IMG/VR virus record: IMGVR_UViG_3300027852_001277
Reading direction: 5' to 3' (one strand)
Length of the DNA stretch: 64,000 nt
From: a virus
The notes under the pieces are model-generated. The model was given only the letters and a program-made list of their open reading frames with translations, was not told the DNA's origin and ran no database searches. This document shows, piece by piece, positions 14,861 through 40,091 of this stretch. Numbering within the stretch: the first letter of the stretch is position 1; each line of letters begins with the position of its first letter. A program made the position numbers and the translations under genes.

Positions 14861-15610
14861 ATGACAACAATAGAATGCAGTAATGAAAATGATTTTGAAA
14901 GTTGCTTTAAGATAAAAGGGACTTACACAGTAAGAGACGGAGTTTATGATGTTGATGGTAATATCCTTCTGATTAAGAAGGTGGAAACTTTACCGTTTAA
15001 ATTTGGTATAGTTACTGGGAATTTTCTGTGTAACGACAACAAGCTCCGTTCTCTTGAAGGCGTTCCTACTAAAGTAGGAGGAAATTTTGATTGTTGTAGA
15101 AATAACCTAACTTCTTTAGAAGGTGTTCCTGTTAAAGTAGGGAAAAATTTTTGGTGTAACGATAACAAGCTTACCACCCTGAAAGGCGCCCCTGAAGAAA
15201 TAGAAGGAATTTTTAATTGTAGGTTTAACAAACTTACCTCTCTCGAAGGTGCTCCTGTCAAAATAGGAGAAGATTTTTTATGTATGTTTAATAACCTTCA
15301 CTCCCTTGAAGGTGCTCCTAAAGAAGTAGGAACAGGTTTTTGGTGTTGCTGTAACAACCTCACCTCCCTCAAAGGTGCTCCCCTTAAAGTAGGTGGAGAT
15401 TTTGATTGTGGTGATAATGAACTTGCCTCCCTTGAAGGTGCTCCTGAAGAAATAGGAGGAACTTTTTGGTGCAATAGAAACAAGCTTCGATCTCTTAAAG
15501 GTGCGCCTAAAGAAGTAGGAGGAGATTTTTTGTGTAACAATAATGAAAAATTGTTTACTATAGAGGAAGTAAAAGCAGTATCCAAAGTTGGAAAAGGGTA
15601 TTTATGTTGA
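14861..15610 (+). CDS. LRR-solenoid protein #2 (8 units)
   Basis: Same N-cap, 21-aa units and C-cap. Confidence 0.9.
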   Translation: MTTIECSNENDFESCFKIKGTYTVRDGVYDVDGNILLIKKVETLPFKFGIVTGNFLCNDNKLRSLEGVPTKVGGNFDCCRNNLTSLEGVPVKVGKNFWCNDNKLTTLKGAPEEIEGIFNCRFNKLTSLEGAPVKIGEDFLCMFNNLHSLEGAPKEVGTGFWCCCNNLTSLKGAPLKVGGDFDCGDNELASLEGAPEEIGGTFWCNRNKLRSLKGAPKEVGGDFLCNNNEKLFTIEEVKAVSKVGKGYLC

Positions 15611-15634
15611 AGACTAAATAGGAGAAATAACATA

Positions 15635-15808
15635 ATGACAATTATGCGAAGACTTCAGAATAGCATTTGGACAAGATGGATTTGGAGCTGTTGGCAACAT
15701 GAAGAGACTGGTATGGTTTGTATGTTGCCCTTTTAGAAATCACCAGGACGGCGTTGGTATAAATATTGCTGTGAAAGTATAAGGAAGGTAAAGAATGAAA
15801 ATCATTAA
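15635..15808 (+). pseudogene. small Trp-rich ORF interrupted by in-frame TAG at 15734
   Basis: Strong RBS; frame continues past the TAG and overlaps the next start. Confidence 0.4.
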
Positions 15809-16244
15809 ACAGCCTAATACATATTCATGTATTGCTTGTGTAGCTGCCATGATCGCCGGCGAGGAACTTAAAGACGTTATTGATTTTGTAGGTCATGATG
15901 GTTCAGACTTCGATTCATGTACTGCCCATCCATTCCACTATACTGGTTTTTATTTAGAAGAGATCATGCTTTACCTCTTAGACAGAGGTTATTCGCTTGG
16001 TACATTTCTTATTTTAAATTCTGATTTTAACGATTTTGAAACTAAAGATAGTATTAATTTTATTATTAAAATCCAAAACCCAGCAATGCTTACAGTTAAG
16101 AGTAAGGTATTCCCTGAACATACAAAACATGTTGTTTACTGGAATGGCGAACACGTGCTAGACCCAAATCCTAGTATTAGTGGAGTAAAAAAGTTAAATT
16201 ATTACGACATATTAGAATGGTGGCCTATACTTAGAATAGTTTAG
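15795..16244 (+). CDS. peptidase C39-like cysteine protease domain
   Basis: IKQPNTYSCIACVAAM...HVVYW...VLDP. Confidence 0.7.
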   Translation: MKIIKQPNTYSCIACVAAMIAGEELKDVIDFVGHDGSDFDSCTAHPFHYTGFYLEEIMLYLLDRGYSLGTFLILNSDFNDFETKDSINFIIKIQNPAMLTVKSKVFPEHTKHVVYWNGEHVLDPNPSISGVKKLNYYDILEWWPILRIV

Positions 16245-16426
16245 CTGTCTTGCGGTGGCTTTTGGCTATCAGAGTCAAGTGGCTTGTTAGTTTTCGGTTT
16301 AGCATCTATTTCATTTATGCACTCTTGAGCGAGATTTATGGCTGCTTGATAGTTACCATTCTTAATACCAACAATTACATATCCTAAAACTTGTTTCATC
16401 GTTAATTGTATTTTCGCCATTAACAT
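16241..16426 (-). CDS. hypothetical protein
   Basis: RBS GAAAGGA on -; isolated reverse-oriented gene. Confidence 0.5.
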   Translation of the reverse strand: MLMAKIQLTMKQVLGYVIVGIKNGNYQAAINLAQECINEIDAKPKTNKPLDSDSQKPPQDS

Positions 16427-16448
16427 ATCCTTTCTACTAGAGGTTATT

Positions 16449-16694
16449 ATGATGAAAAAATATATTGTTTATCCTGGTTATGTTGTCTCTCGCAGAGACA
16501 GAGATAGTCACTATATCACATCGGAGCAATTGATGCGGTTACATGGTGTCAGTCCACGTGATTGCATCATTGTGCGAATAGAAGAAGATTACCGCAGATT
16601 AAAAGTGGTGGACACATCGAAAATGATCGCGCTGTATCCGAGAAGTGATGGTAACTATAAATCATATTTGGAGTGCGCACATTCTCCAAAATAA
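16449..16694 (+). CDS. hypothetical phage protein
   Basis: Last + strand gene before the strand switch. Confidence 0.6.
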   Translation: MMKKYIVYPGYVVSRRDRDSHYITSEQLMRLHGVSPRDCIIVRIEEDYRRLKVVDTSKMIALYPRSDGNYKSYLECAHSPK

Positions 16695-16768
16695 CTTTCG
16701 TGATGTTGCTAGTGCTAATCCCAGAATGAAGGCAGCACTAGCAACATCCAAAATACTTCGCGTTTCTT

Positions 16769-17215
16769 TTAATCTCCAACCTCTTCTTTTTCAGGAATGG
16801 GTTTTTCATTTACTCTCCGACTTTCAACCTCTTGTTCGGGAATTGGTTGTTCATGTACTTTCCAAAATGAAGACTGGTAGTCCCCCTCTCTAATAATCCT
16901 TTTAGGTGGTAGAGGTTGTAAGAGAGGAAGTAGCGGTGGAGGAAGCTGGTCGTTTTCTTTTTTACCATATTCCATAATGTTTTTCATCACTTCATCTTTT
17001 GCAGTATCTGAATCGTATTTCTCTAAGTGAGACTGGATAACATTAGCCATCGCTCTAACAATTTCCATATGTGGCAATACAGTATGAATGTGACCATCCT
17101 TAAATTGAATTGCTATCATTATATCAGCAGGCTCCCTTCGTACAACATCCGTATTACTTTTCAAAAGTGATGCTTCCTTTGTTATCATTTCTACAAGCTT
17201 CTGTATGTTTTCCAT
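16769..17215 (-). CDS. hypothetical protein (paralogue of 57534..57965)
   Basis: Shared PxDIMIxIQFxDGHxHxVLPH motif. Confidence 0.7.
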   Translation of the reverse strand: MENIQKLVEMITKEASLLKSNTDVVRREPADIMIAIQFKDGHIHTVLPHMEIVRAMANVIQSHLEKYDSDTAKDEVMKNIMEYGKKENDQLPPPLLPLLQPLPPKRIIREGDYQSSFWKVHEQPIPEQEVESRRVNEKPIPEKEEVGD

Positions 17216-17228
17216 TATAACTTTCCTC

Positions 17229-17735
17229 CTATTTTAAAATTGAAATTATAAAACTAGGTATACTAACCTTCTCATAGATAATCCCGACTTCTTTAAAAAG
17301 CTTTTTATATTCAATGTCTTTATAGTCAATAGCATAGACAAACTTTGATATTTTTGAGCCAGCTACCATTTTGGCACAAATTACACAAGGAGTATGTGTG
17401 CAATAAATAGTAGCTCCCTTTATGCTGATTCCATGGAGAGACGCTTGTAGTATAGCATTCTCCTCACCGTGCAAGGCTCTACATATTTCGTGTCTCTCAC
17501 CAGAAGGTATATTAAGTTCATTTCTTAAACAACCAAGTTCGAGACAATCTTTCGTATCGGAAGGCGCGCCATTATAACCTGTAGTAAGTATTCTGTGATC
17601 CCTTACAGCTATCGCCCCAACATGATGGCGTTTACAAGTAGATCGTTCAGCTACAAGAAATGCTATCTTCATAAAATACTGATCCCAAGATAATCTAGTG
17701 TAACCTTTTGTGTTTCCTTCAGTTGTTAACTTCAT
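17229..17735 (-). CDS. dCMP deaminase (ComEB-like)
   Basis: WDQYFM, STC, TTGYNG, HGEEN, PCVIC; ATG at 17735 after GGAGGA. Confidence 0.9.
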   Translation of the reverse strand: MKLTTEGNTKGYTRLSWDQYFMKIAFLVAERSTCKRHHVGAIAVRDHRILTTGYNGAPSDTKDCLELGCLRNELNIPSGERHEICRALHGEENAILQASLHGISIKGATIYCTHTPCVICAKMVAGSKISKFVYAIDYKDIEYKKLFKEVGIIYEKVSIPSFIISILK

Positions 17736-18001
17736 AGTAATCCTCCAATAAGACAAATAACAAGGTAAATAGAAAGAATTATAACAACAGCCATTCCAAT
17801 GCTTGCCATAATATCTTCTGTTCTCCATTTAGCTTTAAATCAGGAACAGTCATTGTTTTTATTTATTGATTCTTTCCCTTCTTTGAAAAATTTACATTCA
17901 CTACAATAAACCTTTCTCTTTTTCTCAAAACCTTTCTCTACTAGCACATCTACATCTCTCTGGTATGGGTCAGGTATTACCATAATCGTTTCTCCCATAG
18001 T

Positions 18002-19345: not shown

Positions 19346-19452
19346 TAGTAAACGAAATTAGTATACGCAAATATTCTGCTTACTATAAAAAGAAAATGAA
19401 ATTAGCTAACAGCTTTTTGCCGCACCGAACTTTGGTTTACCCCCGTCTGTTG
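19346..19452 (-). promoter_or_regulatory. repeated promoter-like element B, copy 1
   Basis: ~107-bp near-identical repeat; TATACT on -; internal GCAGA-N3-TCTGC palindrome (one mismatch here). Confidence 0.65.
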
Positions 19453-19659
19453 TTTGTTTTTATTTTTGTTTTTGTGTCAACAACCAAAAACCGTTTTTAC
19501 CCCCCGTCTGTTGGTTGTTTTTCGTTTGTTTTTGTGTTAACCACCCGATTTACAACATAAACCCATTTTCCTTTCATTTTTGATCTATCCTTATGTTAAT
19601 CTTTGTTTTCCTAGGAAGAGCGAAGAGCATTTAAAGAAATTCAAAAACTACTTTAATTC

Positions 19660-19947: not shown

Positions 19948-20142
19948 AATATGACCCTCCTTAATGATTTTATCCTCAAAGTCTCTCGTTTCGTCTACCC
20001 TTATTTTCTTAATTCCCGCTTGTTGTTTGTTTTTTCACCACCAAACTCAAACCAATCCGTACACCGCTTGTTTTTGTAGTAACAACCCAATTTTATTAAC
20101 AACCTATTTTTACCACCGCCTGTTGATTGTTTCTGTTTTATA

Positions 20143-21087
20143 TCAACAACACGTTTTCAACAATCCGTTTTGTCCTCCTATCATCAACATAGATACTGCT
20201 CTTATTTCTTCTATAGTAAACAACATTACATTATTGTCACACCGAAAACCTCTTCCTACTTTTTTAGGTGCACCTTTTAAAGAAATAAGTTTGTTAAACC
20301 TACAACAAAAATCTTCTCCTACTTTGATAGGAGCGCCTTTGAGGGAAGTTAGTTCGTTATTGTTACAATTAAAATCACCTCCTACTTCTTTAGGTGACCC
20401 TTCGAGAGATACAAGCTTGTTAAAGCTACAATCAAAGCTTTCTCCCACTTCTTTAGGAGCGCCTTCGAGGGAACGGATATTGTTGTCATTACACAAAAAA
20501 GTTCCTCCTACTTTTGTAGGGGCGCCTTCAATGGAGTGAAGTTCGTTAAACATACAATTAAAATCTCCTCCTACTTTTGTAGGGGCATTATCGAGAGATG
20601 TGAGCTTGTTTCCACTACAATCAAAATCACCTCTTGTTTCTTTGGGTGCACCTTTAAGGGAACGGATATTGTTGTCGTTGCACCAGAAATTTCCTTTTGT
20701 TTCTTTAGGAGCGCCTTCGAGAGAAACAAGCTTGTTTCTGCTGCACCAAAAATCACCTTTTGTTTCTTTAGGTGCCCCTTTGAGAGAGACGAGCTTGTTG
20801 TCATTACACAAAAAAGTTCCTCCTACTTTTGTAGGGGCGCCTTCGAGGGAGGTGAGGTTATTTCTATTACAATAAAAACCTCCACCTACTTCTTTAGGAG
20901 CACCTTTTAAAGAGGTGAGGTTATTTTTGACACACCAAAAAGTTCCAGTAACTATACCAAACTTGAAGGGGAAAGACTCCACGTTTCTAAGTAGAATGAC
21001 GTCACCATTGACGTCATAAATGTTATTTTTTACTGAATAAATTCCTATTATCTTAAAGTACGATTTAAAATCTTCAGCTATTGTCAT
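20143..21087 (-). CDS. LRR-solenoid protein #3 (11 units; C-cap diverges after RAVS)
   Basis: N-cap and repeats; tail runs into a low-complexity tract. Confidence 0.9.
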   Translation of the reverse strand: MTIAEDFKSYFKIIGIYSVKNNIYDVNGDVILLRNVESFPFKFGIVTGTFWCVKNNLTSLKGAPKEVGGGFYCNRNNLTSLEGAPTKVGGTFLCNDNKLVSLKGAPKETKGDFWCSRNKLVSLEGAPKETKGNFWCNDNNIRSLKGAPKETRGDFDCSGNKLTSLDNAPTKVGGDFNCMFNELHSIEGAPTKVGGTFLCNDNNIRSLEGAPKEVGESFDCSFNKLVSLEGSPKEVGGDFNCNNNELTSLKGAPIKVGEDFCCRFNKLISLKGAPKKVGRGFRCDNNVMLFTIEEIRAVSMLMIGGQNGLLKTCC

Positions 21088-22041: not shown

Positions 22042-22147
22042 TAGTAAACGAAATTAGTATACGCAGATATTCTGCTTACTATAAAAGAGAAACGAAATAG
22101 TTTAATGCTTTTTCCTGCACCGAACCTTGGTTTACCCCCGTTTGTTG
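22042..22147 (-). promoter_or_regulatory. repeated promoter-like element B, copy 2
   Basis: Directly upstream of RBS and ATG at 22026. Confidence 0.7.
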
Positions 22148-22389
22148 TTTGTTCTTGTTTAAAAGTTCTTAAAGTTCTAGGTATGTGATGAAAGCTTCTT
22201 GTATTCAATATCTTCTACTTTGATACAGCAAATATCATAAAAGGAAACTCCTCTAGGATCTGACATTGGTAACTCATCAATCCTAATATCGAAATCATCT
22301 GATAATGTTTTAGCTTTTATATTTTCCACAATACGTCTCCTTTGTTTTTGTTTTTACTCAACAACCGAACTTCAACAACCTTTCCCCAT

Positions 22390-23140: not shown

Positions 23141-23157
23141 TGTGTTCCCCTAATTCT

Positions 23158-23264
23158 TAGTAAACCAAATTAGTATACGCAGATATTCTGCTTACTATAA
23201 AAAGAAAACGAAATTAGCTTGATGCTTTTTCCTGCACCGAACCTTGGTTTACCCCCGTTTGTTG
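23158..23264 (-). promoter_or_regulatory. repeated promoter-like element B, copy 3
   Basis: Ends 18 nt upstream of ATG 23140. Confidence 0.7.
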
Positions 23265-23525
23265 GTTGTTGGAAACGTTGTTATCCGGCACGCAAAATCT
23301 TGTAACTATCACACAATAAATCTATTGATAATAAATGATCGCTTCTATTCTTATTTTTGCAAAACTCGGGAAATGCTTTATGGTTATTTGTCTTAGGACA
23401 ATTAACGCATGTTCCCCATACACCATTTCTTCGGAACTGCTCAAACCGGTCTAAAGAATATTCGGAAATATCTGAATGATCTATCATTTTAGCCTCCAAT
23501 CTTCATAGATAATGGGTGTGTATAT

Positions 23526-27235: not shown

Positions 27236-27601
27236 CTATGATTTCACTTCTACCATATCCATCTCTCGAGCTAAAGCACGGCATGCATCAGCTTCGTCAC
27301 CTACCACATCAAACTTAAATTGTAGACCTCCTTGATCTGGCTTCGGAATCACTACGATTCCGCTACTCATTTGACGTGCTCTTAGCTCGCCAACCAGAAT
27401 ATGTAATCTCTCCAGATCTTTCTTCTCTTCCTTAGAAAAAAGATCTTCTAGGAAGGTCTCGAACGCATTTACCTTAGCTGTTCTATCTAAATGTGATTCA
27501 CCCTTGTGTGTTTTACAACACGTATATAGATTCCACTGCTTTATACACTCTTTCCATTTGTCTATGACTATTTCAGGTTTTTTTAACATTGTTTTCCTCA
27601 C
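27236..27601 (-). CDS. hypothetical protein sharing a C-terminal 60 aa with 27842..28198
   Basis: KKDLERLHILVGELRARQMSSG...EMDMVEV near-identical at DNA level. Confidence 0.6.
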   Translation of the reverse strand: MRKTMLKKPEIVIDKWKECIKQWNLYTCCKTHKGESHLDRTAKVNAFETFLEDLFSKEEKKDLERLHILVGELRARQMSSGIVVIPKPDQGGLQFKFDVVGDEADACRALAREMDMVEVKS

Positions 27602-27841
27602 TTTATGGTCTCACTGAATCCGTAAAATCGTCCGTCTCCAGCATTACACGATCGAAAGATACAATACCTTCCCAGAATCTCTGCTCTAGCATAGTCAACT
27701 ATCGCCTTTACATCTAACACCCAAACACATTAAGGAATTCTCACTACAAGCTTTTTTTGAGAACCAATGTATCTTCTATAAAACATATATCTGGTTCAGA
27801 CTCTGGTAAAATCTCTATTCCTGTACGGTAAAGTTCTATTT

Positions 27842-28198
27842 TCATTTTTTGTTTCCTCCCACTTCTACCATATCCATCTCTTGAGCTAAAGCACGGCATG
27901 CATCAGCCTCCTCACCTGCCACATCGAACTTGAATTGTAGACCTCCTTGATCTGGCTTCGGAATCACTACGATTCCGCTACTCATTTGACGTGCTCTTAG
28001 CTCGCCAACCAGAATATGTAATCTCTCCAGATCTTTCTTATCAATGTATTCCAATGTCATTTTATTTTCCCTTCTTTTAGAGTATGGGATTTGTTTTGTT
28101 ACTATCTCCTTCACTGTTTTGTGTTTAAAATTTATAATTAAAGAGATTGGAACTCTCCAATTTCTTGTCTTTTGCAAACTTACAGTAATCATGTTCAA
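27842..28198 (-). CDS. hypothetical protein sharing a C-terminus with 27236..27601
   Basis: As above; different N-terminus. Confidence 0.55.
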   Translation of the reverse strand: MNMITVSLQKTRNWRVPISLIINFKHKTVKEIVTKQIPYSKRRENKMTLEYIDKKDLERLHILVGELRARQMSSGIVVIPKPDQGGLQFKFDVAGEEADACRALAQEMDMVEVGGNKK

Positions 28199-28647
28199 TT
28201 ATTCTCCTTTTTTCTAAGGGGAAGTATTAACATTTCTTTTGCAACTACAATTGGTATACCTTGTTGGTAACCAGTTTGTACTATATTCCTGAACTTTACT
28301 GCTCTTTTTATTACATTAATATAGAATAATTCTAGCCTCTTAGCATCCTTTTCATGCACGTATATATGAAATCCAATTGTGTACTTCTTCCTTTTATGTG
28401 GGTAATAAAAACATGTTGTATTTTTAGTCGGGAAAGGTCTCAAATCATTTTCATGAATCCACTTCCCTATTGGAATTGGTTTACTTGGTATTATTTGTCC
28501 AAATAATTTTTTGTTCCTAAAGTTACTACCATGCGGTAGTTTGGAATATTTAAAAAGTTTAAATCCTATAAATGAGCCATCATTGGACTTAGTGTACTGG
28601 AAGTTCATTATTCGCTCTGATTTCGTGGCTGGTCTATCTAAGCACAT
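28195..28647 (-). CDS. hypothetical protein, tandem paralogue
   Basis: MCLDRPAT...GYQQGIPIVVAKEMLILPL. Confidence 0.65.
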   Translation of the reverse strand: MCLDRPATKSERIMNFQYTKSNDGSFIGFKLFKYSKLPHGSNFRNKKLFGQIIPSKPIPIGKWIHENDLRPFPTKNTTCFYYPHKRKKYTIGFHIYVHEKDAKRLELFYINVIKRAVKFRNIVQTGYQQGIPIVVAKEMLILPLRKKENN

Positions 28648-29099
28648 GATTTTTTCTCCTTTTTTCTAAGGGGAAGTATTAACATTTCTTTTGCAACTAC
28701 AATTGGTATACCTTGTTGGTAACCAGTCTGTACTATGTTCCTGAACTTTACCGTTCTCCTTACATTTCCATAAAAGGATCCTAGCATATTAATATCCTTT
28801 TCACGCACGTATATATGAAATCCTATTGTATACTGCTGCCTTTCGTAGTGGTAATAAAAACGTGTTGAATTCTTATTAGGGAAAGATCTCCAACCATTTT
28901 CATGAATCCACTTTCCAACTGGGAATGGTCCATTCTCCATTTTTTCTCCCAATAGTCTTTTGGTTTTGAAGTTACGACCACATGAAGAGCGTTTAGAATA
29001 TTTGAAAAATTTAAATCCTATGAAAGATCCATCGTTGGACTTAGTATATTGGAAGTTCCTTCTTCGCTCTACTTTCGTAGCTGCTCTTTCTAAGCACAT
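28638..29099 (-). CDS. hypothetical protein, tandem paralogue
   Basis: MCLERAAT...; tail of a third copy at ~29100-29190. Confidence 0.65.
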   Translation of the reverse strand: MCLERAATKVERRRNFQYTKSNDGSFIGFKFFKYSKRSSCGRNFKTKRLLGEKMENGPFPVGKWIHENGWRSFPNKNSTRFYYHYERQQYTIGFHIYVREKDINMLGSFYGNVRRTVKFRNIVQTGYQQGIPIVVAKEMLILPLRKKEKKSCA

Positions 29100-29220
29100 A
29101 GTATTCTCCTTATCTAAGGGAAGTATTAATATCTCTTTCGCAACTACCACTGGTAACCCTAATTGGTAACCAGTTTGGATTATGTTTCTTTCAGCTCTTC
29201 ATTGCCAAAAAGAAAAAAGA

Positions 29221-31328: not shown

Positions 31329-32243
31329 CTAACTTTTATTTTTTTCCTTCTCCAGAGTATCTTTTGCAATTTCCGTATCTCGCTTTACTTTAATAGGTGT
31401 ATCCTTAAGAGAAGTAAGTTTGTTATATTTACACCAAAAACTTCCCGCTACTTTTGTAAGAGTGCCTTTGATGAAGTGTAGATTGTCAAACCTACACCAA
31501 AAACTTTCTCCTACTTCTTTAGGAGCTCCTTCGAGGGAGTAAAGCTCGTTACTGCTGCACCAAAAATCTCCTCCTATTTCTTTAGGAGCGCCTTCAATGG
31601 AGTGGAGCTTGTTACCGTTACATTCAAAATTTCCTCCTACTTTAACAGGTGCACCTTCGAGAGAGGTGAGATCGTTATAGCTACACCAGAAATTTCCTCC
31701 TACTTCTTTAGGAGCTCCTTCGAGGGAGCAAAGCTCGTTACTGCTGCACCAAAAATCTCCTCCTACTTTTATAGGGGAACCCTTAAGAGAAGTAAGCTTA
31801 TTATAGCTGCACCAAAAACCTCCTACTATTTCTTTAGGTGCGTCTTTGAGAGAAACAAGCTTGTTGTTACTGCACCAAAAATCTCCTCCTACTTTTACAG
31901 GAGCACCTTTGAGAGAAGTAAGCTCGTTGTTACTATTACAATAAAAACTTCCTCCTACTTTAACAGGTGCATCCTTGAGAGAAGTAAGCTCGTTATCCCT
32001 ACAATCAAAATTTTCCCCTATTTTTGTAGGAGTGTTTTTTAGCGAAGTGAGTTTGTTTTTACTACAATCAAAACTTCCAGTAACTGTACCGAACTTAAAA
32101 GGGAGAGACTCCGTATTCCTAATAAGAAAGACGTTACCTTCTACATAATAAATGTTATCTTTTAATGTGTAAGTTCCATCTATCTGAAAGTATGATTCGA
32201 AATCATCTTCATTTTTACATTTTAGTTCATTAACTATTTGCAT
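31329..32243 (-). CDS. LRR-solenoid protein #4 (10 units plus partial, no canonical C-cap)
   Basis: N-cap and repeats. Confidence 0.9.
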   Translation of the reverse strand: MQIVNELKCKNEDDFESYFQIDGTYTLKDNIYYVEGNVFLIRNTESLPFKFGTVTGSFDCSKNKLTSLKNTPTKIGENFDCRDNELTSLKDAPVKVGGSFYCNSNNELTSLKGAPVKVGGDFWCSNNKLVSLKDAPKEIVGGFWCSYNKLTSLKGSPIKVGGDFWCSSNELCSLEGAPKEVGGNFWCSYNDLTSLEGAPVKVGGNFECNGNKLHSIEGAPKEIGGDFWCSSNELYSLEGAPKEVGESFWCRFDNLHFIKGTLTKVAGSFWCKYNKLTSLKDTPIKVKRDTEIAKDTLEKEKNKS

Positions 32244-32523
32244 ACTTTTACTTTCTTACAAATGTGGTGGTTTTGAATGAACTCTCGAATGATTGTATAT
32301 CAAATAAAAAATTATTTAACATTTAACTATTGATCTCCTTCAGGACTAATTTGGAATTGACACAAAGATTTGATATTTGCCGTTCCTCAACTATGTCGCA
32401 AATTGTCATACAACAATCATTACACTTTAAGAAAAATGTTTTTCCGCCATCGACACTATCGATAGTTAAACGATGGTGGTAGTGTTTTATGAGCTCCGAT
32501 AACTTCATTTTTTTCGCCCTCCT

Positions 32524-32772
32524 TCAATGTGAATGATACTTCCGTCTTTTTAATTCATCTCTTGCGTAGTGTGCATCTAAACTCTTCATAGAAGAAACGT
32601 AATCGGAATAAAGAAAAAGACAACCAATAAAATTGGAAAATTTTTTAAAAAATCCCCAAGTAGATTCCTTTCCCTCTTTTTCAGCTTTATACCTCTCGTA
32701 TTGTGCTACAATTTCTCTTAATTCTTCAATAGATTTATTTCTAATATCAACTATAGTTATGGCTCTTATCAT
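32524..32772 (-). CDS. hypothetical protein
   Basis: ORF between LRR genes. Confidence 0.5.
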   Translation of the reverse strand: MIRAITIVDIRNKSIEELREIVAQYERYKAEKEGKESTWGFFKKFSNFIGCLFLYSDYVSSMKSLDAHYARDELKRRKYHSH

Positions 32773-32833
32773 TCCATCAATGTTCGCTTCATGATCATCT
32801 ACTGATGGTGGAATTATGACCTTCCTTTCAAGG

Positions 32834-33571
32834 CTACGCTATCTTATAGGAGCGTTTATTTTCTTGCTTCGTCAAGTTATTCCCATTACAATAAAAATTT
32901 CCCCCTACTTTAACAGGTGCACCTTCAAGAGAGGTGAGATTGTTATAGCTACACCAAAAATTTCCTCCTACTTCTTTAGGAGCACCTTTTAGGGAAACAA
33001 GGTTATTTCTATAACACCAAAAAGCTCTTCCTACTTTTATAGGAGCGCCTTCGAGGGAAGTAAGCTTATTAAACCTACAATCAAAACTTCCTCCTACTTC
33101 TTCAGGAGCGCCTTTCAGTGTGGTGATCTTGTTGTCGTCACACCAAAAACTTCCTCCTACTTCAACAGGTGAACCTTTAAGTGAGACGAGTTCATTTTCA
33201 CTACACCAAAAATGCCCCCCTACTTTTTTCGGAGCTCCTTCAAGAAAGGTAAGGCTATTTTCACTGCAATCAAAATCCCTTCCTACTTCTTTAGGAGCGC
33301 CCTCAAGGGAGATTAGGTTATTTTCACTGCAATCAAAATCTTTTCCTACTTTAACAGGTGCACCTTTAAGTGAGGTGAGCCTTTTGTTACTACAATCAAA
33401 ACTTCCAGTAACTGTACCGAACTTAAATGGGAAAGACTCTACTTTCCTGATGAGGAAGACGTTACCCTTAACATCATAAACTTCATCTCTTACTGAGTAA
33501 GTTCCCTCTACCTTGAAGTACGATTCGAAATCATCTTCGTTAGGCGTTATCTCCGGTTCATTTTCACGCAT
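32834..33571 (-). CDS. LRR-solenoid protein #5 (8 units, no canonical C-cap)
   Basis: N-cap and repeats. Confidence 0.9.
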   Translation of the reverse strand: MRENEPEITPNEDDFESYFKVEGTYSVRDEVYDVKGNVFLIRKVESFPFKFGTVTGSFDCSNKRLTSLKGAPVKVGKDFDCSENNLISLEGAPKEVGRDFDCSENSLTFLEGAPKKVGGHFWCSENELVSLKGSPVEVGGSFWCDDNKITTLKGAPEEVGGSFDCRFNKLTSLEGAPIKVGRAFWCYRNNLVSLKGAPKEVGGNFWCSYNNLTSLEGAPVKVGGNFYCNGNNLTKQENKRSYKIA

Positions 33572-33615
33572 TTGATACCTCCTAATAATTGCGTTTTCTC
33601 TATTCCCTTCTTAAG

Positions 33616-34611
33616 TTATAAGTTTACCTTAAACTTTCGAGGAAATCTCTTTTTTACCTCTTCTATAGTAAACACTTTTTTATTACCAGTACAATCAAAA
33701 GTTCCCACTACTTCTTCAGGAGCACCTTCAAGGGAAGTTAGTTCGTTATAGCTACACCAAAAATTCCCCATTACTTCTTTAGGTGCATATTTTAGGGAAG
33801 TGAGCTTATTAAACCTACAATCAAAACTTCCTTCTATTTTAACAGGGGCGCCTTTCAGTGTTGTGAGCTTGTTGTCGTTACACCAAAAAGTTCCCCCTAC
33901 TTCTTCGGGAGCACCTTCAAGAGAGGTTAGTTCGTTTTCACTACACCAAAAAGTCCCACCTACTTTTTTAGTAGCGATTTCGAGCGAGATAAGGTTATTT
34001 CTGATACACCTAAAATCTCTTCCTACTTTAGCAGGTGCTCCTTTCAGAGAGGTGAGGTTATTTTCGCGACAATCAAAATCTCTTCCGACTTCTTCGGGAG
34101 CACCTTCAAGAGAAACAAGCTTATTTTCGTTACACCAAAAATCTTCTCCTACTTTTTCGGGAGCGCCTTCAAGGGAGATGAGGTTATTTTCGCTACAACC
34201 AAAATCTCTTCCTACTTCTTTAGGTGCGCCCTCAAGAGAGGTAAGGCTATTTTCACTGCAATCAAAATCTTTTCCTACTTTAGTAGGTGCTCCTTTCAGA
34301 GAGGTGAGGTTATTTTCGCGGCAATTAAAATCCCTTCCTACTTCCTTAGGGACGCCTATGAGGGATGTAAGGCTATTTTCACTGCAATCAAAATCTATTC
34401 CTACTTTAACAGGTGCGCCTTTAAGTGAGGTGAGCCCTTTGTTACTACAATCAAAAGTTCCCGTAACTATACCAAACTTAAAAGGGAGAGACTCCATATT
34501 CCTAAGAAGAAGGACGCCACCTTCTACATCATAAACGTTATCTTTTACTGTGTAAGTTCCCTCTATCTTGAAATACGATTCGAAAGTTCCTTGATTATTA
34601 ACTTCTTTCAT
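33616..34611 (-). CDS. LRR-solenoid protein #6 (12 units)
   Basis: N-cap, repeats, KVFTIEEV. Confidence 0.9.
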   Translation of the reverse strand: MKEVNNQGTFESYFKIEGTYTVKDNVYDVEGGVLLLRNMESLPFKFGIVTGTFDCSNKGLTSLKGAPVKVGIDFDCSENSLTSLIGVPKEVGRDFNCRENNLTSLKGAPTKVGKDFDCSENSLTSLEGAPKEVGRDFGCSENNLISLEGAPEKVGEDFWCNENKLVSLEGAPEEVGRDFDCRENNLTSLKGAPAKVGRDFRCIRNNLISLEIATKKVGGTFWCSENELTSLEGAPEEVGGTFWCNDNKLTTLKGAPVKIEGSFDCRFNKLTSLKYAPKEVMGNFWCSYNELTSLEGAPEEVVGTFDCTGNKKVFTIEEVKKRFPRKFKVNL

Positions 34612-34698
34612 TTTCCCATCTCCTCTATAGATTGTATAGCGACTACGCTTTCTTTTTTGATACCTATTTTTTAAATTTCTATAAGTTATAAGTTTCTA

Positions 34699-35388
34699 CT
34701 AAACTTTCGAGGAAATCTCTTTTCTTACTTCTTCTATAGTAAACACTTTTTTATTACCAGTACAATTAAAAACTCCTCCTACTTCTTTAGGAGCGCCTTT
34801 AAGAGAGCGTAGCTTGTTTCTATTGCAATAAAAAGTTTCTCCTACTTTTACAGGCGCACCTTTGAGAGAGCGGAGCTTGTTATGGCTACAATCAAAATCT
34901 CCTCCTACTTCTGTAGGAGCGCCTTCGAGAGAGCGGAGCTTGTTATTTCTACTACACCAAAAAGTTTTTCCTATTTTTACAGGTGCACCTTTGAGAGAGC
35001 GGAGCTTGTTAAACCTACAATCAAAGCTTCCTTTCTCTTCTTTAGGAGCGCCTTTAAGAGAGATAAGTCTATTTTTGCTGCAATCAAAATCTCCTCCTAC
35101 TTTTACAGGTGCACCTTCAAGAGATGTAAGCTTGTTATCGTTACATAAAAAATCTCCTCCTACTTCTTTAGGAGCGCCTTCGAGAGAAGTAAGGCTATTC
35201 CCATCACACCGAAAATCCATAGTAACCGTACCAAATTTAAAGAGAAGGGTTTTAACCTTCTTCTTAAGAATGATGTCACCATCGACATCATAAACTCCGT
35301 CTCTTACTTTATAAGTTCCTTTTATTTCGAAATACTTTTCGAAATTATCTTCGGTAGGCAATGCCTTTAATTTACTTTTACATTCCAT
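34699..35388 (-). CDS. LRR-solenoid protein #7 (7 units)
   Basis: N-cap, repeats, KVFTIEEV. Confidence 0.9.
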   Translation of the reverse strand: MECKSKLKALPTEDNFEKYFEIKGTYKVRDGVYDVDGDIILKKKVKTLLFKFGTVTMDFRCDGNSLTSLEGAPKEVGGDFLCNDNKLTSLEGAPVKVGGDFDCSKNRLISLKGAPKEEKGSFDCRFNKLRSLKGAPVKIGKTFWCSRNNKLRSLEGAPTEVGGDFDCSHNKLRSLKGAPVKVGETFYCNRNKLRSLKGAPKEVGGVFNCTGNKKVFTIEEVRKEISSKV

Positions 35389-35597
35389 TGTATTTTCTCC
35401 ACTTATGCTATACTAATTTGCGGCCAAAACTCTTTCAATTGTGTTTTGGCTCTATGACCATTGGTGGTAATTTGGTCAACAGATCCTATACTTCTTGAAT
35501 GACTCATAAATGATGAGCAAACTGCATCATTTGTTTTAAAATTTCAATATCCATCTTTCCTTGTGCCTTAAAGTTTGGTTCAAAATATTACTTACAC

Positions 35598-35930
35598 TTA
35601 CTTACAATTTTTTGCATCATTAGTTGATGCTGATGGGCTACAGAGTGTCGAATCTTTGGTAACAACTAAGTTGAAGTTAATAAATTCGATTGGTTTTTTC
35701 AGTGTGCAAAGTATTGTTCCCCCCTTTTCATCAAATTTAAAATATCCTATATACTTTCCTTTATAGTAACACTTATTATCCTTTAAAGAGTACAAATGAG
35801 AATTGTGAAGATTGTTACATACGAAAGCTATACATAGAGCAGGATGATTCTCGAATAATGTTTTAGTAAACATTTTATTTATAGCATCTTGAAAAGAGCT
35901 ATAAATAATATCTCGTATTGGGTAGACCAT
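35598..35930 (-). CDS. hypothetical protein
   Basis: 3' end duplicated at 38871-38930. Confidence 0.5.
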   Translation of the reverse strand: MVYPIRDIIYSSFQDAINKMFTKTLFENHPALCIAFVCNNLHNSHLYSLKDNKCYYKGKYIGYFKFDEKGGTILCTLKKPIEFINFNLVVTKDSTLCSPSASTNDAKNCK

Positions 35931-36017
35931 TTGATTTCTCCTTTAGATTATAGTTCTTTTTTCATTCTTTTGAAGACTTTATCTATGCCACGAAAAGCAG
36001 AATCTTTTTGCAGCTAC

Positions 36018-36363
36018 TTAGAAACCATTCTAGTCATTTGAATCATTCAGGTAGTTGTAGTTAGCAAGGAACTTTTCTAGGGTAGATACTGTTTGCCCTT
36101 CGATACGACAATTTTTTCCGTCGTGCTCTAGCACTGTGACTTCAATCATTGTTCTGAACCAACAAGCAAACATTTTCTTTCACCATTCTTATAAGTCTTC
36201 GTATGCTTATACGATTGTTATTACGTTGCGTGTTACCTTTATTAAAGAGAGATACTCCCCACTCATAGTTCTGGTTTTGAACCTTTCTCCTACTTTGTCT
36301 GCAGAAAGTTTGAACGACTCTTGCACTGCTTGTAGTTCCGTATATTTTAAAATATTCTTCTAA
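36018..36363 (-). repeat. mosaic of three copied fragments
   Basis: 36018-36137 = 53887-54006; 36223-36333 ~ 56431-56541; 36334-36363 = 40670-40699. Confidence 0.85.
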
Positions 36364-36573
36364 ATCATCTAATCCTACGTTATAAAGTACATAAGTATTG
36401 GTTCTCTAGATTAGGACACATTCCCAAAAGTGTAAAAACATGATTACAAGCATTAAACGGATTTTTAGAAAATTCTTTAAATTCAACAACATGGTCTTTT
36501 CCACATCTAGCACAATTGGTGACTTTTAATTCCATCTTCTTTCTCCTTTGTCTTGTAAGGGCAACATGGAAAG

Positions 36574-36942: not shown

Positions 36943-36981
36943 CTTCTCCTTCCACTATTGTCCTTGTATTATCTCCTATCT

Positions 36982-37432
36982 TCAAACATAAATACTTTTT
37001 TCAACTCTGGATACTGCTTCTACTTCCTCTATAGTAAACAACTTTTTATTATTGTTACACCAAAAATCTTCTCCTACTTTTTTAGGAGCACCTTCAAGAG
37101 ATGTGAGGTTATTGAACCTACAACCAAAGTTTCTTCCTACTTCTATAGGAGCGCCTTCTAGCGAGGTGAGCTCGTTACCATCGCACCCAAAATCTTCTCC
37201 TACTTCTTTAGGTGCCCATTTCAGAGAGGTGAGGTTATTTTTACTGCAATCAAAAGTTCCCGTAACTATACCAAACCTAAAAGGCAAAGTTTCCATTTTT
37301 AATTAGTGTTACATTACCATTGACGTCATAAACTTCGTCTCTTACTGTATAAGTTCCGTCTACTTCGAAGTAGAGTTTGAAATCATCTTCGGCTGTCTTT
37401 AGTTTACTAGGCTCATCTTTTTTGGTATTCAT
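36982..37432 (-). pseudogene. LRR-solenoid gene #8, frameshifted in the N-cap (3 units plus C-cap)
   Basis: ORFs 37277..37468 and 36982..37296 join at an A5 run (37296-37300). Confidence 0.85.
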
Positions 37433-37490
37433 TTTAAACCTTCTCTTTAAGTTTAACATTGTAGACATATCTGGATAGTCATTGCCTTTC

Positions 37491-37805
37491 CTACATTCGT
37501 TGTATCTGTTTGCACATATCGAGAATCATCTCCTCATACTTGTCCTGTGGTAGTACATCTTCATCTATAAACCTTCCATCTAAAAATAACAATGATGAAA
37601 AAAATTTATCACCTAACCGCTTCTTGATTTTTTCGACTGTTTCAGCGCACTCCTCGGTAGTTCCCGTAACTCTACAAAATATTATGGCAGGTTTTTCTTC
37701 TGCTTCCGCCAAGTCTTCAAGTGTTGGGTCTGACCGGAACATAACCAAGTCCTTAATTGCTGGTTGTGCTTCTCCAAGTACATCCTTTAAATTTTTTTCA
37801 ACCAT
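37491..37805 (-). CDS. hypothetical protein
   Basis: KDLxMFRSDPTL also found in a fragment near 26280-26367. Confidence 0.55.
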   Translation of the reverse strand: MVEKNLKDVLGEAQPAIKDLVMFRSDPTLEDLAEAEEKPAIIFCRVTGTTEECAETVEKIKKRLGDKFFSSLLFLDGRFIDEDVLPQDKYEEMILDMCKQIQRM

Positions 37806-37921
37806 GATTGTACCTTCCTTGTAATTTGATTCTTGTAGCTGTTAATGATTTTCCCTTTTATTTTGGTTTCTTTCTACAAAGACTGTTAGCATGTGCTGCT
37901 AAAGCTTCCCACAATATTCCA

Positions 37922-38290
37922 TCACAATCTTTTCGTGATGGTATTTTTTTTAATATCTAAACCCTCAAATGGCTTAAACTTATTATAATTTAAATCGAGT
38001 TTACGACATAACTCTGCATGGATTTCTGATCTATGAAAAGAGTCCATTTGATCAGCTATTGAGTAGGCATACTGCTTAATAAGATGAGCATTTTCGTGTA
38101 AGTTTCTTATAAAGTGTCCGAGTGGATGCCCACTCTTATCATTACCAATCCATAAATTAACAATAAATGGAAGCATGTGAAATGCAGCGGAACAATCTTT
38201 TAAGTGTTTGTTTAGATCATCCATACTCTCAAAATTTGTCATACATGCACCACAATGTAATTGATGTAATTGACCAAGTTTCTTTGACAT
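37922..38290 (-). CDS. hypothetical protein with C2HC/C2H2-like zinc finger
   Basis: CGACMTNFESMDDLNKHLKDC. Confidence 0.6.
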   Translation of the reverse strand: MSKKLGQLHQLHCGACMTNFESMDDLNKHLKDCSAAFHMLPFIVNLWIGNDKSGHPLGHFIRNLHENAHLIKQYAYSIADQMDSFHRSEIHAELCRKLDLNYNKFKPFEGLDIKKNTITKRL

Positions 38291-38355
38291 ATCTTTACCT
38301 AACTATTTAATTATTTAATTATATCTAAAGTTTTCTTTAATCTATCAGGCTTGTA

Positions 38356-38862
38356 TTATTTTAATGCTTTTATTCTTTTAATGAGATCAGATGTAGAAAC
38401 ACCTTTCACTAAAGGAACCTGTAAAACTTTTCCTCCCTCACTTTCCACCACTTCCTGACCAATCACTGTTCCGCTGACCCAATCTGCTCCTTTTACTAGA
38501 AGATGAGGTTTAATAGCGACTATGAGTGTTAATGGATCTGGTTCGTCGAAAAGGATCACATAATCAACATCCGTAATAGCAGTGAGCATTTCTGCTCTCT
38601 GACCCTCAGGGATAATAGGTCTATTCTGTCCCTTAATAGATCGCACTGAATTATCGCTGTTTATGGCTACTATTAGTATATCACCATTTCTTTTTGCTTC
38701 TCGGAAAGACTGAATGTGTCCCACATGGAGAATATCAAAGCAGCCATTTGTAAAGACAATTTTTTCCCCATTTTCTTTCAACTCTTCGACTACTGAGATA
38801 AGCTCTGTTCGTAACTTAATTTTTGTAGCTGCCAATGATTTTCCCTCACTAATTTGGTTCAA
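38356..38862 (-). CDS. rfaE2: D-glycero-beta-D-manno-heptose 1-phosphate adenylyltransferase (RfaE/HldE domain II)
   Basis: VFTNGCFDILHVGH, AINSD, KGQNRPI, LVKGADW, STSDLI. Confidence 0.9.
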   Translation of the reverse strand: MNQISEGKSLAATKIKLRTELISVVEELKENGEKIVFTNGCFDILHVGHIQSFREAKRNGDILIVAINSDNSVRSIKGQNRPIIPEGQRAEMLTAITDVDYVILFDEPDPLTLIVAIKPHLLVKGADWVSGTVIGQEVVESEGGKVLQVPLVKGVSTSDLIKRIKALK

Positions 38863-39158
38863 AACATTTTTTACACTTACTTACAATTTTTGCATCATTA
38901 GTTGATGCTGATGGGCTACAGAGTGTCGAACCACAACCTTTACAAATTTGAAGTAAAAAACATCCGTTAGCAATTTCCCATTAGCAATACTTTTGATTTT
39001 TTCATCAGACAAATCCTTAATACGATCTGGAATTAATTTTGTAGCTAACATATGATCTCCTTTTATAATTTTCCAAATATACGTTTTCTGTTACAAGTAC
39101 ATAAGATTTAATTATTTTCATTTCTTCCTCTATTTGGTTGTTATCATTGTATTGTTTC

Positions 39159-40091
39159 CTACCATTTAACATAAATACTTTTTCCAACTTTAGATATTGC
39201 TCTTATTTCCTCTATAGTAAACAATGTTACATTGCCATTACATCGAAAACCTCCTCCTACTTCTTTAGGAGCACCTTTCAAAGATGTAAGCTTATTGAAC
39301 CTGCAATAAAAGTTTCCTCCTACTTTGATGGGGGCATATTCAAGAGAGATGAGCTTGTTATTATTGCAATCAAAATCTCTTCCTACTTTAATAGGAGCAC
39401 CTTTAAGAGAAGTGAGTTCGTTGTCCCTACACCAAAAATCCTCACTTACTTCAATAGGTGCGCATTCAAGAGAAATGAGCTTATTTCCACTACAATCAAA
39501 ATTTCCTTCTACTTTTTTAGGCGCGCCTTTCAGAGAAAGGAGCTTGTTATCACTACAATCAAAATCTTCTCCTACTTCTACAGAAGCACCTTTGAGAGAG
39601 TGGAGCTTGTTGTTACTACAGTCAAAAGTTACTCCTACTTCTTTAGGAGCACCTTCTAGAGAGGTAAGTTCGTTTCTGCTACACCAAAAACTCCCACCTA
39701 CTTTTGTAGGAGCACCTTCTAAAGAGGTGAGCTTATTATAACCACACCAAAAATTTCCTCCTACTTCTTTAGGTGCGCCTTTGAGAGAAACAAGCTTGTT
39801 GTCGTTACACCAAAGAAATCCTCCTACTTTAACAGGAGCTCCTATGAGAGATGTGAGCTTGTTTTTGCTACACCAAAAATTTCCTCCTACTTCTTCCGGA
39901 GCGCCTTCAAGAGAGGTAAGTTTATTTTCGGAGCACCAAAAATTCCCAGTAACTACACCAAACCTAAATGGTAAAGTTTCCACTTTCTTAAGTAGAGTTA
40001 TGTCGCCATTTATGTTATAAATTTTATTTTTTACTATGTAAGTTCCGTTTATCCGGAAGTACGATTCGAAACCATCTTCAGCTGTTGTCAT
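39159..40091 (-). CDS. LRR-solenoid protein #9 (11 units)
   Basis: N-cap, repeats, C-cap. Confidence 0.9.
   Translation of the reverse strand: MTTAEDGFESYFRINGTYIVKNKIYNINGDITLLKKVETLPFRFGVVTGNFWCSENKLTSLEGAPEEVGGNFWCSKNKLTSLIGAPVKVGGFLWCNDNKLVSLKGAPKEVGGNFWCGYNKLTSLEGAPTKVGGSFWCSRNELTSLEGAPKEVGVTFDCSNNKLHSLKGASVEVGEDFDCSDNKLLSLKGAPKKVEGNFDCSGNKLISLECAPIEVSEDFWCRDNELTSLKGAPIKVGRDFDCNNNKLISLEYAPIKVGGNFYCRFNKLTSLKGAPKEVGGGFRCNGNVTLFTIEEIRAISKVGKSIYVKW

What the first reader, a model, noticed from the sequence alone, without database searches (positions are those of the whole stretch)
14861..40091. Identical nucleotide modules recur in different LRR genes at different array positions (cassette shuffling or gene conversion)
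Seen: 31626-31715 (gene #4) matches 32894-32983 (gene #5) at 86/90 nt. 33054-33092 (#5) matches 33794-33832 (#6) at 38/39 nt, continuing into the adjacent unit. The rare codon string CTGAAAGGCGCCCCTG is in #2 (15179-15194, unit 3) and #6 (33843-33858, unit 10) on opposite strands. The LHSIEGAP variant shares 17 nt between #3 (20522-20538) and #4 (31588-31604). LISLEYAP is shared by #1 and #9, and LTSLIG by #6 and #9, while the N-caps of these pairs are far more diverged. Inference: ongoing intergenic recombination or copy-choice assembles new arrays from a common pool, analogous to VLR assembly. The mismatches I checked are not adenine-restricted, so this is not DGR-like.
Basis: partly seen in the sequence, partly recalled or inferred. 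Interest (0 to 1): 0.86.

Follow-up and report, generated by a model that had tools for sequence, protein, structure and literature searches.

The report
Recombining LRR gene family in phage
A marine phage carries about a dozen related leucine-rich-repeat genes; neighbouring copies have occasionally swapped or duplicated short stretches by ordinary recombination, and nothing points to a programmed cassette-assembly system.

Summary
Only part of the list exceeds chance.

Across 93 units of 63 nt, any two units share 43/63 bases on average. Shared 16- and 17-mers are therefore expected: 16.5 and 2.6 pairs, with 1,640 such pair-windows seen. The LISLEYAP and LTSLIG pairs are below-average matches.

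The real signals are g4/g5 (90/95), three g5/g6 blocks (about 85%), and intragenic copies in g3, g4, g6 and g7. Their 5th-largest score is 69, against a null maximum of 55 (p<0.002).

These partners are tandem neighbours that also have the closest N-caps (81-85%). The "different positions" are whole-unit indels within collinear blocks.

Mosaicism is nevertheless real:
- Site patterns among g4/g5/g6 switch between segments (chi2=33.9, p=8e-7).
- g6 has a g4/g5-like head and a g7-like tail.

Best reading: a birth-and-death LRR family evolving by tandem duplication, in-register unequal crossing-over and occasional gene conversion. A VLR-like assembly system is not supported: the copies are intact genes with their own start sites, there is no silent cassette bank, and no population variation was seen. 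The scan has reported similar recombining LRR families on other DNA.

The parts
11428..12096 (+). g1: LRR gene, 6 units, perfectly alternating VK/KE and D/W unit types, canonical C-cap
13165..13263 (+). Remnant: last half-unit plus C-cap only; 84% identical to the g2 3' end
14861..15610 (+). g2: LRR gene, 8 units. Its 3' end (15490-15595) matches the g8 3' end at 96/106, while their N-caps are 72% identical
20143..21087 (-). g3: LRR gene, 11 units. Units 2 and 7 share a 50/50 exact run (20795-20844 = 20480-20529), the longest in the family
31329..32243 (-). g4: LRR gene, 11 units, no canonical C-cap. It has an internal copy (31681-31765 vs 31492-31576, 81/85). A 'CNGN' unit, which elsewhere is terminal, lies mid-array
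31626..31720 (-). g4 units 6-7 patch, 90/95 identical to g5 units 7-8 (32894-32988).
32834..33571 (-). g5: LRR gene, 8 units; ends just after a 'CNGN' unit without a C-cap. Collinear with g6 at about 85% apart from whole-unit indels
33616..34611 (-). g6: LRR gene, 12 units. Inferred hybrid: N-cap like g4/g5 (83-85%), C-terminus like g7 (78/93). It also has internal two-unit duplications (206/256)
33054..33229 (-). g5 block matching g6 33794-33969 at 150/176, five units out of register.
34699..35388 (-). g7: LRR gene, 7 units, with an internal two-unit-offset copy (score 72)
36334..36366 (-). N-cap fragment, 97% identical to the g10 N-cap (40670-40702). It abuts two other copied fragments: 36018-36137 = 53887-54006 (99%) and 36223-36333 = 56431-56541 (95%)
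36982..37431 (-). g8: LRR gene with 3 units. The frame breaks at an A5 run near 37300, between the N-cap and the repeats
39159..40091 (-). g9: LRR gene, 11 units, canonical caps. This is the copy that was modelled
40154..40744 (-). g10: LRR gene, 6 units. An in-frame TAG cuts the C-cap, and the C-cap reading continues after it
48818..49690 (-). g11: LRR gene, 10 units, atypical tail. A C-cap-like remnant lies just upstream at about 49716-49765
51175..51402 (-). g12: remnant with two units plus C-cap, no N-cap

Best explanation
The window comes from an uncultured marine phage. It carries a birth-and-death family of 10-11 intact and about 5 broken genes for short leucine-rich-repeat proteins with a cysteine ladder (21-aa, 63-nt units). 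The shared nucleotide modules are footprints of ordinary homologous recombination between paralogs. Four processes account for them: tandem gene duplication; in-register unequal crossing-over that adds or removes whole units and fuses neighbouring genes; intragenic duplication of 1-3 units; and a few short gene-conversion tracts (about 60-180 nt) between adjacent copies. Shown: the patches exist. As a set they exceed chance. They run over several units collinearly. They concentrate in the tandem block g7-g6-g5-g4 and within single genes. Phylogenetic signal switches along g4/g5/g6. Inferred: g6 arose by unequal crossing-over between a g5-like and a g7-like gene, and the g4/g5 patch and g5/g6 unit 1 are conversion tracts. 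Most units are old and about equally diverged (roughly 69% identity). Exchange is therefore sporadic on an evolutionary timescale, not a dedicated diversification machine.
For: Family and fold: NCBIfam internalin J hit at 3e-22; AlphaFold model with pLDDT 94; Foldseek matches to YopM, SspH2 and InlJ. Excess similarity: the top segment scores of 75, 74, 72, 72 and 69 compare with a column-permutation 95% limit of 67; the 5th-largest score exceeds all 500 nulls; 35 diagonals score >=40 against 10.5 expected; 11 exact runs of >=30 nt against 2.2 expected; the longest run is 50 nt against a null maximum of 42. Collinear multi-unit blocks: 8 diagonals score >=60 against 2.05 under unit permutation, p<0.002. 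Congruence with the gene tree: the g4/g5/g6 N-caps are 81-85% identical, against 62-77% for most other pairs (g1/g2: 79%). Mosaicism: chi2=33.9, p=8e-7 for the triplet site patterns, and g6-g7 C-terminus against N-cap gives p=0.0013. g6 lies between g7 and g5, as unequal crossing-over predicts, and the two flanking spacers share short strings. Remnants and broken copies are seen. Non-LRR duplications in the same window are as similar or more so (95-99% over 111-183 nt; one tandem pair 91%), which shows a generally recombination-prone genome. In two related 286- and 377-kb T4-like phages, the orthologous LRR genes differ by exactly one 21-aa unit. Their repeat region looks clearly more diverged than the rest of the protein in the alignment (overall identity 77%), while the major capsid protein is 92% identical. 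Assembly support.
Against: A scan restricted to synonymous codons at amino-acid-identical positions found no individually significant tract (best LLR 8.7 against a null family-wise median of 9.1). Part of the signal could therefore reflect shared amino-acid subtypes under selection. Each single patch is only marginally significant (p=0.02-0.06). With one genome and no close relative, the direction, age and mechanism of each event (conversion, crossover or segmental duplication) cannot be told apart. Long-range linkage across g4 rests on short contigs only.
Confidence: 0.75

Rival explanations
1. Duplication and divergence only. Whole genes and units duplicated, units were gained and lost, and the uneven similarity along gene pairs reflects uneven selective constraint or diversifying selection, with no gene conversion or hybrid-gene formation.
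For: The synonymous-only scan is not significant. g5/g6 are about 84-85% identical in all three collinear blocks, as simple duplication plus unit indels predicts. Units fall into amino-acid subtypes such as FWCSYN and CRFNK that could be maintained by selection.
Against: The triplet site pattern switches sharply: the N-cap is a trichotomy (15/16/12), but unit 1 is 2/1/20 and the C-terminal units are 19/3/10 (p=8e-7). The g6 tail matches g7 although their heads are the most diverged in the block. The g4/g5 patch is 95% identical against 82% for the N-cap, and its four mismatches are all transitions.
Confidence: 0.15
2. Programmed or high-frequency cassette shuffling, like VLR, vls or pilS systems. 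Arrays are actively reassembled from a common pool of units during phage replication, giving population-level diversity.
For: Each unit has a nearly invariant nucleotide core (unit nt 22-45, wobble bases included) that could guide in-register template switching. Several gene remnants and one three-way patchwork of copied fragments are present. Logan contigs show many short junction-like joins between arrays, but these cannot be interpreted.
Against: There is no expression-site and silent-cassette architecture: the copies are complete ORFs with their own ATG and, for most, a GGAG-type motif upstream. Most units have no closer-than-chance relative. There is no within-gene or positional homogenisation (43.36 vs 43.34 mean matches). 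Shared blocks are multi-unit and collinear. The independent assembly of g5-g7 is identical to the window. The only deaminase in the window is an ordinary dCMP deaminase, and no reverse transcriptase was found among the ORFs scanned.
Confidence: 0.05
3. Assembly artefact. The shared patches are chimeric joins made by a short-read assembler threading reads of one paralog into another.
For: Other assemblies break inside the arrays: the JGI contig ends at 31903 in g4, by my coordinate arithmetic the ENA contig ends inside g11, and Logan contigs are fragmented.
Against: The g4 and g5 versions of the patch both exist as separate contigs that differ at the expected bases. The g4 version is joined to g4-specific flanks (contigs 31547-31726 and 31697-31765). 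g5-g7 are reproduced at 100% identity. The longest exact inter-unit repeat is only 50 nt.
Confidence: 0.03

Closest known systems
Tandem LRR gene clusters evolving by unequal crossing-over and gene conversion (plant R-gene/NLR clusters; Listeria internalin loci, where to my recollection inlH is a recombinant of inlC2 and inlD; both recalled from background knowledge, not checked here)
   Same: Paralogous LRR genes lie in tandem. Whole-repeat indels keep the register. A hybrid gene sits between its two parents. Short conversion tracts and pseudogene remnants are present (birth-and-death evolution).
   Different: The host genome is a phage, the proteins are small (about 200-330 aa) with family-specific N- and C-caps, and no function is known. 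I found no published description of such a family in phages.
Lamprey and hagfish VLR assembly (copy-choice insertion of flanking LRR cassettes into an incomplete germline gene)
   Same: LRR modules share short stretches of identity, and diversity is concentrated at a few positions of each unit.
   Different: There is no incomplete recipient gene, no bank of partial cassettes, no evidence of within-population rearrangement and no AID/APOBEC-type partner. Exchanges are few, old (95% identical, not 100%) and between neighbouring complete genes.
Bacterial antigenic-variation cassettes (Borrelia vlsE/vls, Neisseria pilE/pilS, Anaplasma msp2)
   Same: Segmental gene conversion between paralogous sequences.
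   Different: Those systems have one expressed locus plus silent donors and show high-frequency switching. Here every copy looks expressible and no switching is shown.
Listeria InlJ and the YopM / IpaH-SspH LRR domains (short bacterial LRRs)
   Same: 21-residue units. Cys replaces a core hydrophobic residue (92/93 units), Asn is conserved (91/93), and the model is a curved solenoid.
   Different: Sequence identity is only about 17-23%. The caps differ, and there is no signal peptide, anchor or E3-ligase domain. The genes are phage-encoded.
Multigene-family expansions in large DNA viruses ('genomic accordions': poxvirus, and mimivirus ankyrin/FNIP/LRR families; from background knowledge)
   Same: A large virus genome carries many recombining paralogs of a repeat-protein binder, with remnants and copy-number flux.
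   Different: This is a bacteriophage, not a eukaryotic virus, and no selective driver has been identified.

Membership tests
Leucine-rich repeat proteins, short bacterial type with cysteine ladder (InlJ-like) | Tandem units of 20-22 residues carrying an LxxLxLxxNxL-like core with an invariant Asn | tested here: met
   93 units of 21 aa (two have 22). Asn at position 20 in 91/93 units and Leu at position 1 in 90/93.
Leucine-rich repeat proteins, short bacterial type with cysteine ladder (InlJ-like) | Cys replaces one core hydrophobic residue in every unit | tested here: met
   Cys at position 17 in 92/93 units. NCBIfam internalin_J is the only meaningful hit, at 3e-22, far below its full-length cut-off.
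Leucine-rich repeat proteins, short bacterial type with cysteine ladder (InlJ-like) | Curved beta-solenoid fold | tested here: met
   AlphaFold2 model of g9: pLDDT 94.3, pTM 0.89, two short strands per unit. Foldseek top hits are YopM, SspH2, APL1B and InlJ 3bz5.
VLR-type or cassette-based programmed assembly | One incomplete or single expression locus that receives donor sequence | tested here: not met
   Ten or eleven complete ORFs, each with an ATG; a GGAG-type ribosome-binding motif is evident upstream of most.
VLR-type or cassette-based programmed assembly | A bank of promoterless partial cassettes | tested here: not met
   Only about 5 short remnants or broken copies are scattered through the window. 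Most units have no donor-like close relative.
VLR-type or cassette-based programmed assembly | Alternative arrays at one locus within a population | not testable with these tools
   Only contigs of one run were available. A second assembly is identical over g5-g7. The metagenome scans found nothing.
Diversity-generating retroelement | Reverse transcriptase plus a template/variable repeat pair that differs at adenines | tested here: not met
   The g4/g5 mismatches are four transitions, two at positions with no adenine in either copy on either strand. No RT domain in the 20 ORFs scanned; most ORFs of the window were not scanned.
Gene conversion / unequal crossing-over in a tandem multigene family | Phylogenetic signal changes significantly along aligned paralogs | tested here: met
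   Triplet patterns 15/16/12, 2/1/20 and 19/3/10 give chi2=33.9, p=8e-7. g6-g7 head against tail gives p=0.0013.
Gene conversion / unequal crossing-over in a tandem multigene family | High-identity tracts beyond chance, also at silent sites | tested here: inconclusive
   Significant as a set on all sites, but not on synonymous codons alone.
Gene conversion / unequal crossing-over in a tandem multigene family | Whole-unit, register-preserving indels between homologous arrays | tested here: met
   g5 and g6 are collinear blocks offset by 0, 2 and 5 units. The orthologs in L005 and L006 differ by exactly 21 aa.

The most novel reading that the evidence does not exclude
Recombination among the paralogs is itself the selected trait. 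The nearly invariant 24-nt core of every unit (wobble bases fixed far beyond the genome's codon bias) serves as an in-register homology anchor. During recombination-dependent replication the phage population would then continually generate new LRR arrays, a phage-side repertoire of binding proteins that keeps pace with host targets or defences.
Probability: 0.08. Interest if true: 0.75.

Novelty: new member of a known kind. Interest (0 to 1): 0.3.

Why it matters
The shared modules are a clean but ordinary example of how repeat-protein gene families evolve: duplication, unit gain and loss, hybrid genes and short conversion tracts. What is less ordinary is the setting. A phage devotes a dozen loci in 40 kb to an unnamed family of cysteine-ladder LRR binders. 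That family has thousands of metagenomic relatives, including members in T4-like jumbo phages and a cultured Vibrio phage. If the targets of these proteins were found, the recombining arrays would show how phages diversify protein-recognition modules without a dedicated mutagenesis system. The specific claim of VLR-like assembly should be dropped unless long reads show population heterogeneity.

Tried and rejected
1. Synonymous-codon-only tract scan: no tract was family-wise significant. It has low power because only about 8 of 21 codons per unit are informative.
2. Positional homology and within-gene homogenisation: none found (same N-index 43.7, same C-index 43.2, within-gene 43.36 against 43.34 between genes).
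3. An antisense gene as the cause of the codon constraint: rejected. The long antisense ORFs (for example 33800-34534) lie in the frame whose third positions coincide with the sense third positions, so they cannot constrain sense wobble bases. They stay open simply because the repeat unit has no stop in that frame.
4. mRNA structure as the cause: z-scores of -0.5 and -2.0 for two 315-nt array segments, not convincing.
5. A universal nucleotide-level signal in the unit core: rejected. Other genomes use other codons at the same positions, for example Val GTT/GTC and Gly GGT in L005 and L006.
6. Close relatives for population comparison: none found. IMG/VR scans gave one distant locus or nothing. 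Both metagenome scans were empty. Exact cluster look-ups were empty. The phage database has only distant relatives at 55% identity or less.
7. Logan contig 'joints' between arrays: short contigs with about 30-nt anchors, probably other paralogs or strains. They are not usable as evidence for alternative arrays.
8. No whole genome is held for this window.
9. Three literature searches found no description of a phage LRR multigene family.


Full report
WHAT IS THERE

The window has about 35% GC, no genome is held for it, and it occurs in one public marine metagenome run. It looks like part of a large phage. It encodes thymidylate synthase, dCMP deaminase, ATP-dependent DNA ligase, a DHH phosphoesterase, an amidase and one tRNA-Lys.

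Scattered over 11.4-51.4 kb are 11 genes (g1-g11) and several remnants of one family. Each intact gene has three parts:
- an N-cap of about 55 aa (FESYF..GTY..YDV..G);
- 3-12 units of 21 aa with consensus LTSLxGAPxxVGGxFxCxxNx;
- usually a C-cap (LFTIEEV.AVS.VGK).

The repeats are genuine short LRRs with a cysteine ladder. The only meaningful family hit is internalin J (3e-22). An AlphaFold model of g9 has pLDDT 94. Its best structural matches are YopM, SspH2 and InlJ.

The family is very large in metagenomes, with more than 7,500 hits, none of them named. Members occur in 286- and 377-kb T4-like phages near the gp23 and portal genes and in Vibrio phage VB_VaC_SRILMA.

CHECKING THE OBSERVATION

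To judge significance I cut the arrays into 93 phased 63-nt units.

Any two units share 43.3 ± 4.2 of 63 bases. This holds whether they come from the same gene or not (43.36 vs 43.34) and whether or not they hold the same rank in the array.

Against that background the shorter matches are not informative:
- A shared 16- or 17-mer is uninformative. 16.5 and 2.6 unit pairs are expected to match over those exact windows. 1,640 and 1,261 exact pair-windows of those lengths exist. Exact runs of 20 nt or more number 115 against 74 under column permutation.
- The LISLEYAP pair (42/63) and the LTSLIG pair (40/63) are below-average matches overall.
- Their rare residues sit at conserved ranks: the last or penultimate unit, and unit 2. 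That is the opposite of shuffling.

The larger matches are real:
- g4/g5: 90/95.
- g5/g6: 250/297, 152/178 and 150/176.
- g4/g4: 81/85; g6/g6: 75/81; g3/g3: 50/50.
- g2/g8 3' ends: 96/106.

Under a null that shuffles codons within each unit column, the top score of 75 has a family-wise p of 0.024. The fifth-largest observed score (69) exceeds all 500 null values (maximum 55). Eleven exact runs of 30 nt or more occur against 2.2 expected, and the 50-nt run exceeds the null maximum of 42.

Under a null that shuffles whole units, there are still too many high-scoring diagonals (8 against 2.05, p<0.002). The homology therefore runs collinearly over several units. It does not come as single cassettes.

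A stricter scan that uses only synonymous codon identity found nothing individually significant. The evidence is solid for the set and modest for any single patch.

WHO SHARES WITH WHOM

N-cap identities define a g4/g5/g6 clade (81-85%) and a g1/g2 pair (79%). All other pairs are 62-77%. The significant intergenic patches are exactly between g4, g5 and g6, which sit next to each other.

g5 and g6 are about 85% identical throughout. They differ by whole-unit indels, with blocks offset by 0, 2 and 5 units. The g4/g5 patch is offset by one unit.

Painting every 63-nt window of each gene with its best match elsewhere gives mostly 50-55/63, to ever-changing partners. That is what an extreme value of the background predicts. 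Most units are old and about equally diverged.

MOSAICISM IS NEVERTHELESS REAL

Informative sites were counted among g4, g5 and g6, as sites where only g4=g5, only g4=g6, or only g5=g6:

| Segment | g4=g5 | g4=g6 | g5=g6 |
|---|---|---|---|
| N-cap | 15 | 16 | 12 |
| Unit 1 | 2 | 1 | 20 |
| Last two shared units | 19 | 3 | 10 |

The heterogeneity gives chi2=33.9, p=8e-7.

Three further observations point the same way:
- g6 and g7 have the most different N-caps of the block (103/159) but similar C-termini (78/93; p=0.0013).
- g6 lies between g7 and g5, and its two flanking spacers share short strings. This is the arrangement expected if unequal crossing-over between a g5-like and a g7-like gene created a hybrid. 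That origin is an inference.
- g4 carries a 'CNGN' unit, which elsewhere is terminal, in mid-array. It is followed by a three-unit-offset internal copy.

Broken or partial copies fit birth-and-death evolution:
- g8 has a frame break at an A5 run.
- g10 has an in-frame TAG inside the C-cap.
- g12 is a remnant, and a C-cap remnant lies at 13165-13263.
- A C-cap-like remnant lies just upstream of g11.
- An N-cap fragment lies at 36334-36366.

Recombination is not special to the LRR genes. Non-LRR segments of 111-183 nt recur at 95-99% identity (one tandem pair at 91%), including a three-piece patchwork at 36018-36366.

In two related jumbo phages the orthologous LRR genes differ by exactly one 21-aa unit. 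In the alignment their repeat region looks clearly more diverged than the non-LRR N-terminal domain (overall identity 77%). Their capsid proteins are 92% identical.

ASSEMBLY

A JGI contig from an independent assembly equals window 31903-36119 at 100%. The g4 and g5 versions of the 95-nt patch exist as distinct Logan contigs. The g4 version is joined to g4-specific flanks.

Other assemblies break inside arrays, and no raw reads could be laid. Long-range linkage is therefore plausible but not proven.

INTERPRETATION

The data fit an ordinary recombining tandem gene family, like plant R-gene clusters or internalin loci. Nothing supports VLR-like programmed assembly:
- There is no recipient locus and no silent cassette bank. 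The copies are complete genes with their own ATG, and most show a GGAG-type motif upstream.
- The exchanges are few, local and not very recent (95% identity).
- The assemblies recovered match the window: L009 and L008 are identical and L007 differs at one base in 13 kb.

A DGR is also excluded as far as tested. The mismatches are transitions, two of them at positions without adenine, and no RT was found among the ORFs scanned.

The scan has reported comparable recombining LRR families on other DNA. I did not test those reports.

SIDE OBSERVATION

Within the unit, the third codon positions of nt 13-15 and 22-45 (CCT AAA GAA GTA GGA GGA GAT TTT) are almost invariant. Examples: A in 93/93, A in 90/93, T in 90/93. 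The window's other genes use AAA 71%, GTA 36% and GGA 32%. By contrast, the wobble bases of LTSLxGA are close to random and unusually C-rich.

Other genomes fix different codons at the same positions. An antisense gene and RNA structure do not explain it. It remains unexplained and is the only feature that keeps a 'recombination anchor' reading alive.

Noticed in passing
all 93 LRR units, unit nt 13-15 and 22-45 (e.g. window 33679-34434): Third codon positions of P-K/E-V-G-G-D-F are nearly invariant (AAA/GAA 92/92, GTA 78/80, TTT 90/91), far beyond the genome's codon bias. Wobble bases of L-T-S-L-x-G-A are near random and C-rich, and Gly uses GGT/GGC at position 6 but GGA at positions 12-13. 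Related phages fix different codons. Unexplained.
   Followed up: partly
window 36018-36366: Three-piece patchwork in a spacer: 120 nt at 99% to 53887-54006, 111 nt at 95% to 56431-56541, then 33 nt at 97% to the g10 N-cap (40670-40702). Two other assemblies break at or near it.
   Followed up: partly
window 37290-37310 (- strand): g8 changes reading frame at an A5 run between the N-cap and the repeats. An internal ATG could still give a 104-aa protein without an N-cap. This could be a pseudogene, a slippage site or a sequencing error.
   Followed up: partly
window 40100-40160 (- strand): g10 has an in-frame TAG inside its C-cap (KLFTK*EVEAVTRVGKNIY...). The canonical C-cap continues in frame after the stop and runs up to the g9 ribosome-binding site.
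   Followed up: no
window 49716-49765 (- strand): C-cap-like remnant (..VKTVSRVGIAIFS*) between the pyrD-like ORF and g11. It suggests that an LRR gene once preceded g11 and was largely deleted.
   Followed up: no
window 27236-29150 (- strand): Two further pairs of tandem paralogous small genes with 94-96% identical stretches (27245-27427 = 27860-28042; 28199-28310 = 28651-28762), so paralog duplication is common outside the LRR family too.
   Followed up: no
window 19431-19533, 20004-20134, 22126-22167, 23243-23284: Repeated intergenic motif (TTTACCCCCGTCTGTTGTTTGTTTTT and variants) in six copies, on the strand opposite to the genes. Possibly a terminator or promoter element.
   Followed up: no
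N-termini of g1, g2, g3, g9 (e.g. window 40077-40091, 21073-21087): Short leaders of the type MT(T)IAE/MTTAE precede the N-cap. They share a conserved upstream junction (GGAGATA..ATAATGACAAC) that also follows the C-caps.
   Followed up: no
L005:10001-11716 and L006:10001-11734: In 286- and 377-kb T4-like phages the same LRR type is fused to a conserved non-LRR N-terminal domain of about 350 aa and sits near the gp23, protease and portal genes. This is a different architecture from the small capped proteins of this window.
   Followed up: partly
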